The notes under the pieces were generated by a model. It did not search any database. It had not been told where the DNA came from and saw nothing but the letters and a program-made list of their open reading frames with translations. A DNA stretch of 63,865 bases, counting the filler, from Octopus bimaculoides (lineage: Eukaryota), in the NCBI RefSeq assembly GCF_001194135.2. It is 5 parts of 5 records of this genome, joined end to end, with 100 filler letters (N's around TTAATTAATTAA, not from the genome) between each part and the next. Parts side by side here need not be neighbours in the genome. Positions count along the whole stretch, not along the records: positions 1 to 21,986 come from NC_068990.1; positions 22,087 to 31,278 come from NC_068991.1; positions 31,379 to 58,234 come from NC_068987.1; 2 more parts are not named here. One strand, written 5' to 3'. Positions 1,160 to 53,785 of this stretch are shown piece by piece (the stretch's first letter is position 1; each line of letters starts with the position of its first letter). A program made the position numbers and the translations under genes.

Positions 1160-1247
1160 TGCAGCTGAAGATTGCTCTGCATTTTACATTTAATGTAATG
1201 CTCGCATTACTTAAATAAATGGAGTAGCATGAAACGTGCGTACAGCA
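1160..1247 (+). ncRNA. Weak/degenerate type I hammerhead ribozyme candidate
   Basis: CUGAAGA 1165-1171; long imperfect helix II (UGCU-CUGCAUUU / AAAUGGAG-U-AGCA); GAAA 1231-1234; helix III ACGUGCGU; GUA triplet; helix I UGCAG/CAGCA pairs 4 of 5. Lacks the G10.1-C11.1 pair. Confidence 0.3.
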
Positions 1248-1393
1248 ATAGCCTTTAAAACCCGTGTTGCTTTTTGGGATTTTATATATATATATATATA
1301 TATATATATGCTAGGCTGGTTATTTGACGAGATAATTAAAGCCTGGGAAAAAATACCAACAAGTAAATACCACACGATATTTATCCCGACTTT

Positions 1394-1489
1394 CTGGGTT
1401 CAAATCCGCCCAAGGTCAACTTTGCCTTTCATCTTTACGATGTTGATAAAATAGACTCCAGGCGAAGTACTGGAGTCGAATTAATCGAC
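1394..1489 (+). mobile_element. Degenerate tRNA-derived SINE fragment (family A)
   Basis: B-box-like GGGTTCAAATCC followed by ACTTTGCCTTTCATC...GATAAAATAG...TACTGGAGTCGAATTAATCGAC, matching the family A copies at 8526, 11200 and 30175. Confidence 0.7.
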
Positions 1490-1889
1490 AGTACTCTAAA
1501 TGGACTTCATACATGAGTTAGAAATCAATATGTGTGTGAGAGGAAAGGGTATAGGGAATCTAGATTCTGGGTACCTTAATGCCACCGTTAATGTAATGCC
1601 AAAAAGTTTGAGAGAGTTCTAGCTTAACACACACACCAACGGCATACGTTTCGCATTTAGTAATAATCATTTAATTGGTGGCGAGGTTAAGTGAGTGCTT
1701 CTACCACATAACTTGAGTAATAGCCATTGTGTATAGGCAGAATGAGGTTGTGTACCGCACCTCTCACTCTGTATCAACAACAATCTGTCTGTCAGTCTAT
1801 CTGTATGTCCTCAGGGTCGCTCTCATCACGGCTGTATACTTTGGGTGTTATTTTATATGTGTATACACATCTGTGGCTATCAATATCAA

Positions 1890-3068
1890 TGTGTGAGCGG
1901 AAACATGCATGTGTGTGTATATGTGTACCTCTCTCTCTCTCTATATATATATATATACCTGTATATGAAGGGCGACGTGTATACGTATGTGTGTGTGCGC
2001 GTCTATCTGTACACATATGATTATACACACAAGCACATACACACACTCAAATATATACATTATATGAATACATACATACATATATACATACACACACACA
2101 CACATATATATATATGTATGTATGTATGTATATATATATATATATATATATATATATATATATATATATATATATATATATATATGTGTATATATATATA
2201 TGTATATATATATGCACATACATATATATATATACACATGTAACGGGTGAAGTCTGTGTGTTTCTGTGTAAGCGTATGTGTATTCGTGTAGGTGTATGCT
2301 GATGTGCATATGTGTACTTACGTTTACAATTTACTTCAGTGTATCAAGATGTCTGTATCTACGTGTATATATCTCGTGGTATGTGTGTGTGCGTGTTTTT
2401 GCTAAATGATTCTCTGCACTCATGTCACTTTATATCTAAGCCGAAATTATAAACAAATATTTTAAACATCCCATCGCGCACGTGCATATGTGTAACCAGG
2501 TGTAGGTGATTCCCTGTATGTGTGTGTGCGCGTGTGTGTGTGTGTGTGCGCGCGTGTGTGCGTGCGCGCGCGGGCGTGTGTAAATGAAAGTGTGCGGTGA
2601 GAAGGAGGTAGCTGCGTGCATCTGTTTATTAAAGGCAGAGTGCATGTGTTTATGAAAGGCAGCGGTAAGCAGAGAAATATTTCTATCAACAGGAAGTACA
2701 GTATTCCACAGTTGGGCTAGTCTTCTGATGACTAGGTGTGTGTACATGTATGTGTGTGTGAGTGGGTGTGCGTGCATGTGCGTGTGCACGCGTATGCGTG
2801 CGTGTATACGTATATATATAAACACCTATATTTATATATGCTATAGATATTATAATCATATATTTGTTTATATTTCTCTGTGTGTATGTCTACACATGTA
2901 AACGTACAAACACACAGACATACGCTAACACGCATATACATATACATACAAATATATATTCACACATTTATATACATACAACCATATATACATGTATAGA
3001 TATACATACATACATGCACGCATACATACAACCATATATATATATATATATATATATATATATATATA
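1890..3068. repeat. Compound (TA)n/(CA)n/(TG)n microsatellite tract
   Basis: Directly visible dinucleotide runs; all ORFs here are YI/HT/CV repeats. Confidence 0.95.
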
Positions 3069-50340: not shown

Positions 50341-53300
50341 TATGTATATATATATATATATGTTTATGCATATATTCCCATTTATTTATTTTGTATATTC
50401 ACATGTGTATGTGTGTCTCTGTGTGTACGCGTGAATGTATAATATATATCTATATTTTATATGTGTATACGTGTGTTTGTGTATGTGTACTTTTATATGT
50501 GCGTAATCACGTAAATGCCAAGGCGCCCGTGTAATTACTTTCTGTGTATAGACGTGTGTACGCGAGTGTTTGTGTGTAACTTTGTGGAAGATTCACCAAT
50601 ATCAGTTGAAGAATTTTAATCAAATTTTTATTTTGTATGTTTGCTACATTCTTGCTTATCTCCTTGTCAGCATTTCAGTGTCCATATATCTATATTTCAA
50701 TACTTCACATGTTTTGTTTGGACTTGAAAAGAGATATGCAAATGAGAATATATATTGTTATATTTGTCGATATATATTCTTCTCTCGAAAATAGCTTTGA
50801 TTACGTAGAAATATACATCATATGCATACGCATACAAATACACGCATGCACGCACGTGCACACACACACAAACGCACAAGCCTAGTGAAGGCAAAGGCTA
50901 AGGAACACACACACACATATACATATATATATATATATATGTGTGTGTGTGTGTGTGTGTGTGTGTGTGTGTGTGTGTGTTGTTTTCTAAATGTATATAT
51001 ATACAAAATATAACGTGGTGTAAAACCATAACTTCGTTTTTAGTTTGTCGGATGTATACTCTAAACCTTGAATGAAAAAATATAGATAGAGAGAATTTAC
51101 ACAAGATCGTAATTGGAAAATGATTGGTAGAGTTACATGGCGATATGCACATTCATGAGACTGAAATTGAGGATATGGATCTTTTCTGTTTGGCTTCACT
51201 TTTTTAAGTTTTAAAATTAAGTGAAATTTTTCAAATTTGATGTATTGATGTAATTTCTGACGCTGAATCTGATGCTGTTAGTTACCTGTTCCAGAGAAAA
51301 TTTTACAGTAATGTTACGGATGTTTAAAGTTTGATCATTTTTACCCAATCAGAAAAGCAGAAGCTGGAAGCTGGCATTTTGTGCATGATGACAGTACGAC
51401 GACTCAACATTCAACGACTGAACTTTTAATAAGTTTTAATGACGAAAGTCATGGAAATATTAGAACTGCATGTAATGCGAAAAATCACACTATCACGCAA
51501 AAAAAAAAAATGAAACTGAACGTANNNNNNNNNNAATGTTAAATTACAAAAAAAAAAAAAAAGAGAAAATCCAGAAAACACCTCTAGCTCAATTAATGTA
51601 ACGATTCAACTGCTAGAAAAGGCGGTCAAATCTCATCGCAAAGAACACCCTAATATCATAAAATGAGGAAGGACATACTACATTATGGTAGTCTTAGATA
51701 ACCCGAAAACTGTGGGGCTTCCAGCATTAGATTGTTCCTTTCGATCATAGGTCTGCTCGATCAGCCGCATCCTCCTCAGTTTTCGATTCTCCATCATATA
51801 CAAAAGGTTGCACGAGCTGAGCAGACGGTTGAGCAAACTACAAAACAGCTTGGCTTGTTAATATGGAAATATGTACCAATATGTTTGTAGCTTTCGATTG
51901 GTTATAATTACCCCAAATTTGCAAACTTCAAAAACTATTAAGTTTTTATTTATTAATTTAAGACAAAAGTGAATTCCAATTCCCTATTTAACATACAAAT
52001 CTACATCAATACATCAAGTTTGAAACCATTTGTTAAAAAAGTGTAAGAATTGAAAAGTGAAAGCGAAATAGAAAGGATCCGGGGATATCTTTAGAAAGAT
52101 ATACGTTGGTATATACTGATGTACGTGCATTAGTGCAAAATAAAAGATTATGTATGTATAAGGATTCTTGATTTAATCTCACGCTATAAAGTGAGCGGAA
52201 TGAACAGCAGTTTGTATGCACGTATCAAAGCATGTATGTATGTGAGTGCACAAATGTGTGTATATCTGTCGTAGTGTGTATGTGTGTGTATACTTCTATG
52301 TGTACACTATTTAGTCCATATAATATTTGGGAGGGGCCACGTAGCAAAAATGTATATTGGATCCACAGTAGTATTTTAAGGGTAAATGAAAAACAGTTTT
52401 TCCTTAGCTGTGTGTATTTGTACGTAGTGCAAGAAACAGCTAGATTTCTTTCTCTAGCATTTTACAAAGTTCAACCTACACAAAATGAATGTGTGATAAA
52501 CAAAATAGGAATTTTGAATAAAGTTTCTATAGACTAATTTTTAAACATCGAATGGCTATGGGGGTCCTCCAGAATAAAATAGTAATCAATGGGATCTATA
52601 GACAAAACCCTGATAGAAATTAACATGTATGTATTTATAAGGGTGCGGGGGTGTAAATTCTTTAGGGATTGATAGCATCTTCATGACTGGTAAAGTGAGT
52701 GTAATGAGATAAAGGGTAGCTAAAATTAAGCTGATGAACAGACGAATGTACCAGCAGACAAGTTGGTATCCCGCTATGGCAACAAGTTGACCACGCACAA
52801 ATGACTTCTTTTGAAATAGAACGTTTACTGAAGCTGGAGATAAGGAATTCTTCTAGTTNNNNNNNNNNNNNNNNNNNNNNNNNNNNNNNNNNNNNNNNNN
52901 NNNNNNNNNNNNNNNNNNNNNNNNNNNNNNNNNNNNNNNNNNNNNNNNNNNNNNNNNNNNNNNNNNNNNNNNNNNNNNNNNNNNNNNNNNNNNNNNNNNN
53001 NNNNNNNNNNNNNNNNNNNNNNNNNNNNNNNNNNNNNNNNNNNNNNNNNNNNNNNNNNNNNNNNNNNNNNATATATATATATATATATATATATAGCATT
53101 ATTACCTTAGTGTGCTCAACTATCATCATAAAACGTGAAACATGTCAATGCAAAAGAACGGACTGAGCAAGTAGTTTTATTAATTTATATTTTATAGTTT
53201 TTATTTCCATTGATTGCTTTTCATGACCTGAAGGGACACGGTATTTCGTTATGCAACCATGATTTACTAAAATGTGTAATCATTAATATTTACGTACCAG

Positions 53301-53398
53301 CTTCCAGCAATGTGATAATGCGTAAAATTGATATATCTAATTATGTTACAACGCTGTATTTAATGTCTATTTAAGCAATGGGATCAGGGCTGATTAAG

Positions 53399-53462
53399 GG
53401 GTTAAATGGGTGCTGATGAAAGAGCAAAATTTCGCGAAATATGGCATATACGTCCATTACCC
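53399..53462 (+). ncRNA. Type I hammerhead ribozyme candidate with bulged extended helix I
   Basis: Helix I AAUGGGUG/CGUCCAUU (8 bp, 2 G-U) plus GGGU/ACCC beyond a 2-nt bulge; CUGAUGA 53413-19; GAAA 53436-39; helix III AUAU(GGC)AUAU; AUA triplet; helix II weak (GC/GC after an AAGA insert). Confidence 0.6.
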
Positions 53463-53714
53463 ATTTTTCATCTTCGATCTCATCTTTTGTTTACATCTGA
53501 CGTCTCAGATACGAAAGGACTGTGCTGGTTATAACTTCTATCGAATATCTGTTTAGATAATCTTAAGAAGAGATTTGTTTATCTTACAATTTTTTTTTTT
53601 ATTTGCATCAATTTGTTTTGTCATTTTTATCCCCTGTATATCTGAATCTGCGTGTTGTTCTTTGTCAAGGGAATCTTAAATTTTAAATATGGGTATAAAA
53701 CAATGGGGCACAAT

Positions 53715-53785
53715 AGATGATCCAGCAGTGATCCCAAAGCCACTCGCCTGATGAGTGTAAGTACACAGCTATTGCTGGATCATCT
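53715..53785 (+). other. Hairpin enclosing CUGAUGA plus helix II but lacking GAAA (decayed hammerhead?)
   Basis: AGATGATCCAGCAGT / ATTGCTGGATCATCT 15-bp stem; inside, CTGATGA-GTGT(AAGT)ACAC-AGCT. Confidence 0.3.

What the first reader, a model, noticed from the sequence alone, without database searches (positions are those of the whole stretch)
1160..53785. A scattered set of mutually unrelated hammerhead ribozyme folds, all on the + strand
Seen: three near-complete type I hammerhead folds (4011, 15556, 53399) and four decayed or partial ones (1160, 44686, 48297, 53715). I could see no shared sequence between them outside the catalytic core. Known: minimal type I hammerheads with short palindromic helix III occur in Penelope-like element pLTRs and in non-autonomous retrozymes, where they act as dimers and release circRNAs. 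Inference: this genome hosts several distinct ribozyme-bearing PLE/retrozyme families, and two PLE protein remnants lie in the same window. The one-strand bias could reflect selection within a transcription unit, but could also be my search bias, because I scanned the minus strand less thoroughly.
Basis: partly seen in the sequence, partly recalled or inferred. Interest (0 to 1): 0.75.

Follow-up and report, generated by a model that had tools for sequence, protein, structure and literature searches.

The report
Rewired hammerhead among octopus retroelement tails
Six of the seven motifs are copies of common repeats, likely left by Penelope-type jumping genes, that carry predicted self-cutting hammerhead RNAs of a known kind, whereas the seventh is the tail of a different jumping gene whose conserved fold holds every hammerhead catalytic letter in a wiring I did not find in the papers searched and is predicted to cut its own RNA.

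Summary
All seven sites are copies of seven unrelated dispersed repeats in an octopus-like genome. Six are type I hammerhead families. 4011 is the 3' pLTR of a young (TA)n-targeting Penelope-like element (PLE); 1160 and probably 53715 end Hydra-clade PLEs; 15556 and 53399 are retrozyme-like units of about 360 and 410 bp. Only the 4011 copy passes my strict fold test. Site 48297 is not a decayed type I fold: it is the 3' UTR of a HERO-like restriction-endonuclease LINE and holds the whole hammerhead core in the order S-G-C, with helix II supplied by an upstream strand. I found this fold in 28 of 44 related 3' UTRs (16 distinct families) with strong covariation and not in controls. Cleavage is untested; RNA-seq showed no pile-up. 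The all-plus orientation is real in this window but modest (nominally 1 in 64; flanks 33+/34-; no host gene found). The scan had already noted the HERO fold and the long-armed Hydra hammerheads on other DNA.

The parts
1160..1247 (+). Type I hammerhead with a 59-nt helix II arm and U.U at 10.1/11.1; end of the ~1.3-kb 3' UTR of a Hydra-clade PLE. Core 1165-1171, GAAA 1231-1234, predicted cut after 1242. This copy has one change in helix I.
3936..4073 (+). 3' pLTR of a young (96-98% identical) C-terminal-EN PLE with a CX4CxxC linker. Minimal type I hammerhead 4011-4055: extra G after A9, 6-bp helix II, 2-bp helix III, predicted cut after 4050. The 3' end is lost in an assembly gap followed by (TA)n.
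15422..15690 (+). Copy of an old ~360-bp retrozyme-like unit with a canonical-size type I hammerhead (core 15581-15587, GAAA 15604-15607, palindromic helix III, predicted cut after 15617). Proximal helix I is mutated here; an inverted piece of the same unit lies at 15422-15515 on the minus strand.
44686..44945 (+). Type I hammerhead family with an 82-96-nt helix II arm and palindromic loop III. Core 44710-44716; the GAAA half at about 44796-44821 is damaged in this copy. 44686-44714 is a junction fold-back. Parent ORF not found.
48295..48460 (+). 5'-truncated 3' UTR of a HERO-like RLE LINE with the rewired hammerhead: helix X strand 48297-48300, hairpin Y 48301-48316, upstream helix II strand 48317-48322 (one change at 48319 here), S block 48336-48346 (predicted cut after C48341), G block 48350-48363, C block 48371-48382, helix X partner 48383-48386; element end about 48457.
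52755..54495 (+). Interrupted copy of an old PLE 3' region (Hydra-like EN upstream in 2 of 45 loci). 5' half of a long-armed type I hammerhead at 53744-53781 (core 53748-53754); decayed 3' half at 54469-54495.
53235..53570 (+). Copy of an old ~410-bp retrozyme-like unit nested in the 53715 element. Type I hammerhead 53399-53465 (core 53413-53419, GAAA 53436-53439, predicted cut after 53450) with a decayed helix II; short inverted piece at 53235-53260.
38290..38418 (-). Remnant of a Hydra-like PLE ORF, not linked to any of the seven ribozymes.
   Evidence: tblastn E 2e-5; no Pfam hit

Best explanation
The seven motifs are independent insertions of seven repeat families: six carry type I hammerhead folds and are (4011, 1160) or likely are (53715, 44686, 15556, 53399) ends of Penelope-like elements or their non-coding derivatives, and 48297 is the 3' UTR of a HERO-like LINE whose conserved, non-circularly permuted hammerhead fold is predicted to cut its own RNA after C48341. 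Shown: copy families, ORF links for 4011, 1160 and 48297, and the covarying helices of the 48297 fold. In that fold the blocks run: upstream helix II strand, cleavage site with helix I strand, GAAA, then CUGANGA. A9 is not joined to G10.1; G10.1 follows a hairpin (Y) upstream, and the bases after A9 tend to pair back upstream (helix X). Inferred: a transcript running through head-to-tail copies would be cut at successive ribozymes into unit-length RNA whose two ends stay paired through helices II, III and X. Reverse transcription would start at a fixed site about 116 nt downstream of the cut and cross the rejoined or merely held junction. That would give the fixed 3' end, the many copies that run through the cut, the few that start at it, and more-than-unit copies. 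The shared strand in this window is most likely chance.
For: 4011: GIY-YIG end 379-635 nt upstream on the same strand in 8 of 25 loci, (TA)n target, 30-40-nt tail in 5 of 30 copies, inverted 5' copies. 1160: Hydra-type EN about 1.3 kb upstream in L171, and a ~77% identical relative behind an RT-EN ORF with CxCX5C in L172 that keeps the core with changed helices. 15556 and 53399: tandem or inverted self-repeats in 16 of 30 and 18 of 30 loci, period about 360 and 410 bp. 48297: the ORF ends about 50 nt upstream in L136, L142 and L147. Of 80 metagenome loci 41 reach the C-terminus. A strict descriptor parsed 23 of 42 UTRs, 0 of 42 reverse complements and 1 of 8400 shuffles; one allowing one core change parsed 28 of 44, 0 of 44 and 0 of 352. 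On a sequence-only MAFFT alignment of 15 families, helices I and III pair in 94.8% of cells against 66.5% shuffled (0 of 500 reach it), 7 of 9 pairs change on both sides, and slid registers give 37-51%. The upstream helix II partner is 5 of 5 paired in 15 of 16 families against 35 of 240 swapped pairs; G10.1-C11.1 in 14 of 16; the published SGC pairing fails, 0 of 16 at the first pair. Position 17 is not G in 29 of 30 when left free. L348 has a ribozyme-bearing 3' end, starting 56 nt above the cut, joined directly to the leader and ORF; L233 shows the same junction in another host and L247 the leader only. Two of 30 copies begin 2-3 nt from the predicted cut.
Against: No cleavage, ligation or circle was observed. 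Three RNA-seq runs from one study (about 6% of each read) gave no pile-up of ends at either predicted cut and reads on both strands. 28 of 30 copies run through the HERO cut, and 2 of 30 near it is weak against a background of short truncations (about 1 in 20 by my rough count). Helix X is less well supported: 8 or more pairs in 9 of 16 families against 36 of 240 swapped. The nested minimum-energy fold of the window copy pairs the CUGAUGA and site strands otherwise. 16 of 44 UTRs did not parse; some are truncated or decayed, but in-genome families L201, L205, L209 and the lineage L256/L257/L266/L272 show no such motif. Descriptor pair counts are partly by construction. In a PLE tested in vitro, hammerhead cleavage was not needed for insertion (PMC11167929). 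The clade name HERO is recalled from the C-terminal motif, not tested by a tree.
Confidence: 0.7

Rival explanations
1. The 48297 fold is a real hammerhead that cuts rarely, and insertions are copied from uncut read-through transcripts of head-to-tail copies, with internal priming; cleavage only trims or limits transcripts and no circle is used.
For: 28 of 30 copies cross the cut; head-to-tail junctions in L348, L233 and L247 fit tandem templates as well as circles; no RNA pile-up; precedent in the PAc PLE, where uncut RNA is the main substrate (PMC11167929).
Against: Two copies start at the cut; the topology holds both cut ends together by several helices, which favours rejoining (inference).
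Confidence: 0.4
2. The 48297 fold is a hammerhead-derived but catalytically idle structure that the element's reverse transcriptase binds at the 3' UTR.
For: It sits where LINE proteins usually bind their RNA (established knowledge); the A9-G10.1 link that Eckert et al. take as uninterruptible is broken; no cleavage seen.
Against: CUGANGA in 15 of 16 families and GAAA in 16 of 16, across proteins only 30-54% identical to the octopus one; position 17 avoids G in 29 of 30; G10.1-C11.1 is kept. A binding site would not need the cleavage-site rule.
Confidence: 0.2
3. The common plus-strand orientation reflects selection: both stretches lie in introns of minus-strand genes, and sense-oriented ribozymes were purged.
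For: 7 of 7 on one strand, nominal P 1/64, or 1/32 if each stretch's direction is arbitrary; no minus-strand core in five scans.
Against: Two chromosomes; 53399 is nested in 53715; no host exon by Pfam; flanks 33+/34-; six of seven copies are damaged or lack a partner; the pattern was picked after the fact from many windows.
Confidence: 0.12
4. The 15556 and 53399 units are pLTR stumps of coding PLEs whose ORFs I did not reach, not self-standing retrozymes.
For: Inverted 5' copies are common, and I saw only partial dimers, no long arrays.
Against: No PLE ORF upstream on the same strand in 30 loci each with seven probes; sequence downstream of the ribozyme equals sequence upstream one unit away.
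Confidence: 0.3

Closest known systems
Minimal type I hammerheads of metazoan PLEs (Cervera and de la Pena 2014, PMC4209133; parts 1-2 of 4 of the text read)
   Same: 4011 has the extra base between A9 and G10.1, G10.1-C11.1, a 6-bp helix II, a short helix I and a tiny helix III, in the 3' pLTR of an RT-GIY-YIG element.
   Different: Its loop III (AA) is not a perfect palindrome. 1160, 44686 and 53715 have 59-99 nt between A9 and G12 and a mismatch at 10.1/11.1.
Hydra-clade PLEs (Craig et al. 2021, PMC8557442; section 11, passages and supplement File S1 rows seen; File S2 with the hammerhead drawings not held)
   Same: C-terminal EN with CxCX5C linker and CxxC/CxH motifs; the clade is listed for Octopus bimaculoides (Hydra-1_Obim).
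   Different: The paper reports canonical hammerheads in Hydra; the 1160 family has a 1.3-kb 3' UTR and a long branched helix II. File S2 could show such arms.
Metazoan non-LTR retrozymes (Cervera and de la Pena 2020, PMC7229834, passages; Li et al. bioRxiv 10.64898/2026.07.22.740005, parts 1-2 of 5)
   Same: 15556 and 53399 are non-coding units of 360-410 bp with one canonical-size type I hammerhead, like the 350-390-bp mussel units. A U.U pair at the base of helix II is described for axolotl HHR_Amex2.
   Different: Only old, dispersed monomers and partial dimers were seen; no expression as circles was shown.
Type-SGC hammerheads (HRIMA-1; Eckert et al. 2023, PMC10085705; abstract, sections 13-15, part 1 of section 18 and passages read; supplements not opened)
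   Same: Non-circular order S-G-C, a short linker from the helix I strand to the helix II strand, and all core nucleotides present.
   Different: In SGC the strand after CUGANGA forms helix II; here that pairing fails and G10.1 comes from a strand upstream of the cleavage site, behind a hairpin, so the core has four blocks. The paper found no such RNA in genomes of known organisms; this one sits in a LINE 3' UTR.
HDV-like ribozymes of R2 and other LINEs (PMC6765202 and PMC13725137, passages)
   Same: A self-cleaving RNA in a non-LTR retrotransposon.
   Different: Those are HDV-like and at the 5' end; this is hammerhead-like and about 116 nt from the 3' end.

Membership tests
PLE minimal type I hammerhead (site 4011) | CUGANGA, extra base, G10.1-C11.1 helix II, GAAA, short helix III, UH, helix I | tested here: met
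   29 of 30 copies, window copy included
PLE minimal type I hammerhead (site 4011) | Lies in the pLTR of an RT plus GIY-YIG element, with tail and inverted copies | tested here: met
   Pfam GIY-YIG only E 0.011, below cut-off; motifs read by eye
PLE minimal type I hammerhead (site 4011) | Palindromic helix III and loop for dimer cleavage | tested here: inconclusive
   A-U and G-C around an AA loop; a dimer would carry two A.A mismatches
PLE minimal type I hammerhead (site 4011) | Self-cleavage as a dimer | not testable with these tools
   no pile-up in three RNA-seq runs
Hydra-clade PLE (1160 family) | C-terminal EN with CxCX5C linker, CxxC and CxH, no CCHH | tested here: met
   ORFs in L171 and L172 against section 11 of PMC8557442
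Hydra-clade PLE (1160 family) | RT phylogeny inside Hydra; RWK and DKT motifs | not tested
   available RT pieces are 5'-truncated
Hydra-clade PLE (53715, 44686) | Hydra ORF upstream on the same strand | tested here: inconclusive
   53715: 2 of 45 loci; 44686: 0 of 45
Non-LTR retrozyme (15556, 53399) | Non-coding unit of 150-450 bp with one type I hammerhead | tested here: met
Non-LTR retrozyme (15556, 53399) | Tandem arrays of two or more complete units | tested here: inconclusive
   partial dimers only among 30 loci each
Non-LTR retrozyme (15556, 53399) | Expressed as small circular RNA | not tested
   both read-laying runs went to 48297 and 4011
Type I hammerhead (site 48297) | Order CUGANGA, GAAA, UH | tested here: not met
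   order is UH, GAAA, CUGANGA in all parsed families
Type-SGC hammerhead (site 48297) | Block order S-G-C with covarying helices I and III and an intact core | tested here: met
Type-SGC hammerhead (site 48297) | Helix II formed by the strand directly 3' of CUGANGA | tested here: not met
   0 of 16 at the first pair, 4-8 of 16 with one extra base; upstream strand 15 of 16
Type-SGC hammerhead (site 48297) | Site-specific self-cleavage | not testable with these tools
   indirect only
HERO clade LINE (48297 element) | RT, zinc knuckle and C-terminal restriction-like endonuclease in one ORF, no rDNA target | tested here: met
   ORF pieces in L147 and L348, RVT_1 and zf-RVT on homologs, dispersed flanks; endonuclease motif read by eye, no Pfam hit
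HERO clade LINE (48297 element) | RT phylogeny with named HERO families | not tested
   no named HERO sequence came from any call; the name is recalled and also used by earlier scan notes

The most novel reading that the evidence does not exclude
HERO-type LINEs across many animals carry a four-block hammerhead in which A9 and G10.1 lie on different strands. It cuts tandem transcripts into unit RNAs and rejoins them into circles that are reverse-transcribed from a fixed internal site, so a LINE clade replicates through a ribozyme-made circle as has been proposed for Penelope elements.
Probability: 0.35. Interest if true: 0.9.

Novelty: new variant of a known kind. Interest (0 to 1): 0.72.

Why it matters
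Two things go further. First, the 48297 fold breaks the rule used to enumerate hammerhead permutations (CUGANGA must run straight into helix II). It would be a non-circularly permuted ribozyme in a cellular genome and a hammerhead at the 3' end of a LINE, and it is testable with a 110-nt transcript. If it cuts and rejoins, it changes how HERO elements are thought to be copied and offers a scaffold that holds cut ends together. Second, three of six type I families have helix II arms of 59-99 nt, beyond the 7-17-nt spacer used in one published core search (PMC8557442), so hammerhead counts in such genomes are probably too low.

Tried and rejected
Rfam on the whole window listed 150 of 209 matches, all microsatellite-driven miRNA or snoRNA models; the other 59 were not shown. 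Rfam on 48290-48445 gave two chance matches and no hammerhead. I tried by hand to read 48297 as a type II hammerhead, an HDV-like fold or a minus-strand hammerhead; none fitted. The published SGC helix II was tested and failed. The viral-contig scan found no relative of the LINE. No holder on record as RNA was listed for the HERO 3' end; three raw RNA-seq runs added by species label showed both regions on both strands, without end pile-ups or a joint at either cut; this neither supports nor refutes cleavage. One search used a structure string with wrong column numbers and is discarded; one search is the correct count. L250 was dropped from the swap tests for a doubtful helix II register, and L250 and L269 from the alignment. 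No parent ORF was found for 44686, 15556 or 53399. No host exon was found. Literature searches for a HERO or 3'-UTR permuted hammerhead and for long helix II forms returned nothing describing either, judged mostly from listings; Lunse et al. 2017 was not held, most subscription journals and Repbase Reports are not searched, and supplements of PMC10085705 and File S2 of PMC8557442 were not seen and may bear on novelty.

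
Full report
Setting. The window is a pack of five stretches with many gaps and microsatellites. The genome has 2.34 Gb, and the closest named protein hit to one of its elements is from Octopus bimaculoides (86% over a third of the query), so I infer an octopus. Sites 1160, 4011 and 15556 lie on contig C10 and the other four on C7, so they cannot share one transcription unit.

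Check of the observation. The seven stretches exist and are unrelated outside the core. Every one is a dispersed repeat: the 40 scored candidates per search matched at 94-98% for 4011, 1160 and 48297 and at 70-88% for the other four. A strict type I descriptor on both strands hits only 4017; shuffles give 0.025 hits per window. Among fetched copies the complete fold occurs in 29 of 30 (4011), 11 of 20 (1160), 7 of 20 (44686), 8 of 30 (53399), 3 of 30 (15556) and 2 of 20 (53715), and the window copy passes only for 4011. The motifs are thus family features, mostly decayed here.

Site 4011. Longer copies run upstream into the end of a GIY-YIG endonuclease preceded by a CX4CxxC linker; 8 of 25 loci hold both this end and the ribozyme 379-635 nt downstream, and several others break at gaps. 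Copies end sharply at (TA)n, 5 of 30 carry a further tail, and three loci have an inverted 5' copy. These are the PLE features listed in PMC8557442. The ribozyme matches the minimal PLE type of PMC4209133. Neptune or Nematis is likely from the linker; no tree was made.

Long-armed type I folds. In 1160, 44686 and 53715 the core halves are 59, 82-96 and 96-99 nt apart. Each family has a 4-5-bp helix I, a mismatch at 10.1/11.1 (U.U, mostly A.G, C.A), a 4-5-bp helix II base, and GAAAC, a four-base loop that is palindromic in 44686 and 53715, then GUH. The 1160 family ends a 1.3-kb 3' UTR behind a Hydra-type EN; a relative about 77% identical keeps the core with changed helices. Five further folds with 27-64-nt spacers turned up in unrelated flanks, one about 350 nt behind a Hydra-type ORF. 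In the window the 53399 unit sits inside the 53715 copy, whose 3' half lies at 54469-54495.

Retrozyme-like units. 15556 and 53399 have canonical-size folds. Sequence downstream of the ribozyme reappears upstream one unit away (about 360 and 410 bp), 16 of 30 and 18 of 30 loci show tandem or inverted self-repeats, and no PLE ORF lies upstream on the same strand. This fits the units of PMC7229834 and their proposed PLE origin, but I saw no long arrays.

Site 48297. Its family is young and the motif is not decayed: 43 of 50 overlapping loci keep the exact core. It begins about 50 nt behind the stop of a LINE ORF with a zinc knuckle and a restriction-like C-terminus; I recall this C-terminus as HERO-type. 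Reading Eckert et al. suggested a non-circular permutation: GCCG-U-C-GAGAG, then GGCCCC-GAAA-CGGC, then CUCUC-CUGAUGA. Helices III and I form as in type SGC. Helix II cannot form with the bases after A9, but does with a strand 19-25 nt upstream of U16.1. To test this I fetched relatives: other families in the same genome and 80 metagenome loci, 41 of which reach the C-terminus. A strict descriptor parsed 23 of 42 UTRs of at least 200 nt, 0 of 42 reverse complements and 1 of 8400 dinucleotide shuffles, and in the window only 48341. With one core change allowed it parsed 28 of 44, in 16 groups below 80% similarity, with 0 of 44 and 0 of 352 in controls. Because a descriptor selects pairing, I also counted pairs on a sequence-only alignment of 15 families: helices I and III pair in 94.8% of cells (shuffled 66.5%, slid 37-51%), with changes on both sides in 7 of 9 pairs. 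The upstream helix II partner is perfect in 15 of 16 own-family tests and 35 of 240 swapped ones; helix X reaches 8 pairs in 9 of 16 against 36 of 240; a hairpin ends at or next to G10.1 in most families. Position 17 avoids G in 29 of 30. Sixteen UTRs did not parse, among them three in-genome families and a lineage whose ORF runs on into another domain, so the fold is not universal among these relatives.

How it may work. The predicted cut lies 116 nt above the fixed 3' end of insertions. Of 30 copies chosen by the part below the cut, 28 extend above it and two start 2-3 nt from it. After earlier scan notes proposed a circular template, I looked for over-length copies among 16 long loci: L348 starts 56 nt above the cut, passes the element's 3' end and continues without a break into the leader and ORF. 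L233 shows the same junction in another host and L247 the leader. A cut-and-rejoin template with internal priming explains all of this, but so does an uncut tandem transcript, as for the PAc PLE. RNA-seq from one study showed no pile-up at this cut or at 4050. I put the fold at about 0.9, self-cleavage at about 0.7 and the circle at about 0.35-0.4.

Strand. Seven of seven is nominally 1 in 64, less once the nested pair and the after-the-fact choice are allowed for. Family hits in 710 kb of unrelated flanks split 33 to 34, minus-strand PLE pieces exist in the window, and Pfam found no host exon. Chance is the best reading; intron selection cannot be excluded without annotation.

Novelty. PLE hammerheads and retrozymes are known, and these are new members; the long arm is a variant that I did not find described, though File S2 of PMC8557442 was not seen. 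The HERO fold works like an SGC hammerhead in order but fails one defining feature, and five searches found no description; Eckert et al. report no such RNA from genomes of known organisms. I reached this reading before opening the scan's notes, which list 96 findings with these words in at least 13 genomes and two on long-armed Hydra hammerheads; they are unchecked and not independent support.

Noticed in passing
L256:1587-1886 (also L257, L266, L272 by eye): In one lineage of these LINEs the ORF does not stop after the endonuclease but runs on into a ubiquitin carboxyl-terminal hydrolase Cys box (Pfam UCH, E 1e-5, above cut-off); these loci lack the rewired fold in the 330-520 nt examined.
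   Followed up: partly
window 53719-53730 with 53770-53781: In the 53715 family a strand upstream of helix I is complementary over 12 or more bases to the helix II arm; it could be a stem I-loop II pseudoknot or an inhibitory fold. In the 44686 family the upstream flank is complementary to the GAAA half.
   Followed up: no
window 53494-53518: The 53399 unit carries a second, degenerate CUGA...GAAAC-GUC motif about 80 nt downstream of its hammerhead, conserved in the family but without G8-A9 in register.
   Followed up: no
window 54234-54420: Fold-back fragment of the 15556 family without its ribozyme, lying between the two halves of the 53715 hammerhead.
   Followed up: partly
L018:824, L069:1305, L042:1039, L063:1221, L076:124, 2570 and 2656, L168:1104: Six more type I hammerhead families in unrelated flanks, five with 27-64-nt spacers and palindromic or near-palindromic helix III.
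   Followed up: partly
L201, L205, L209, L227, L228: Other RLE LINE families of this genome whose 3' UTRs differ and did not parse as the rewired fold.
   Followed up: no
window 4660-8041 (-), 9782-10728 (-), 15650-16320 (+), 3360-3935 (+), 38938-39240, 49563-49967: Other transposon remnants: a broken non-LTR RT element (Pfam RVT_1), a MULE transposase with FLYWCH, Tc1-like and mariner-like pieces; the 4011 stump is inserted in the mariner-like one.
   Followed up: partly
L033:1562-1638, RNA reads: A second subfamily of the 4011 element, differing at several positions flanking the hammerhead and diverging after position 1638, makes up a fifth to two fifths of the reads.
   Followed up: no
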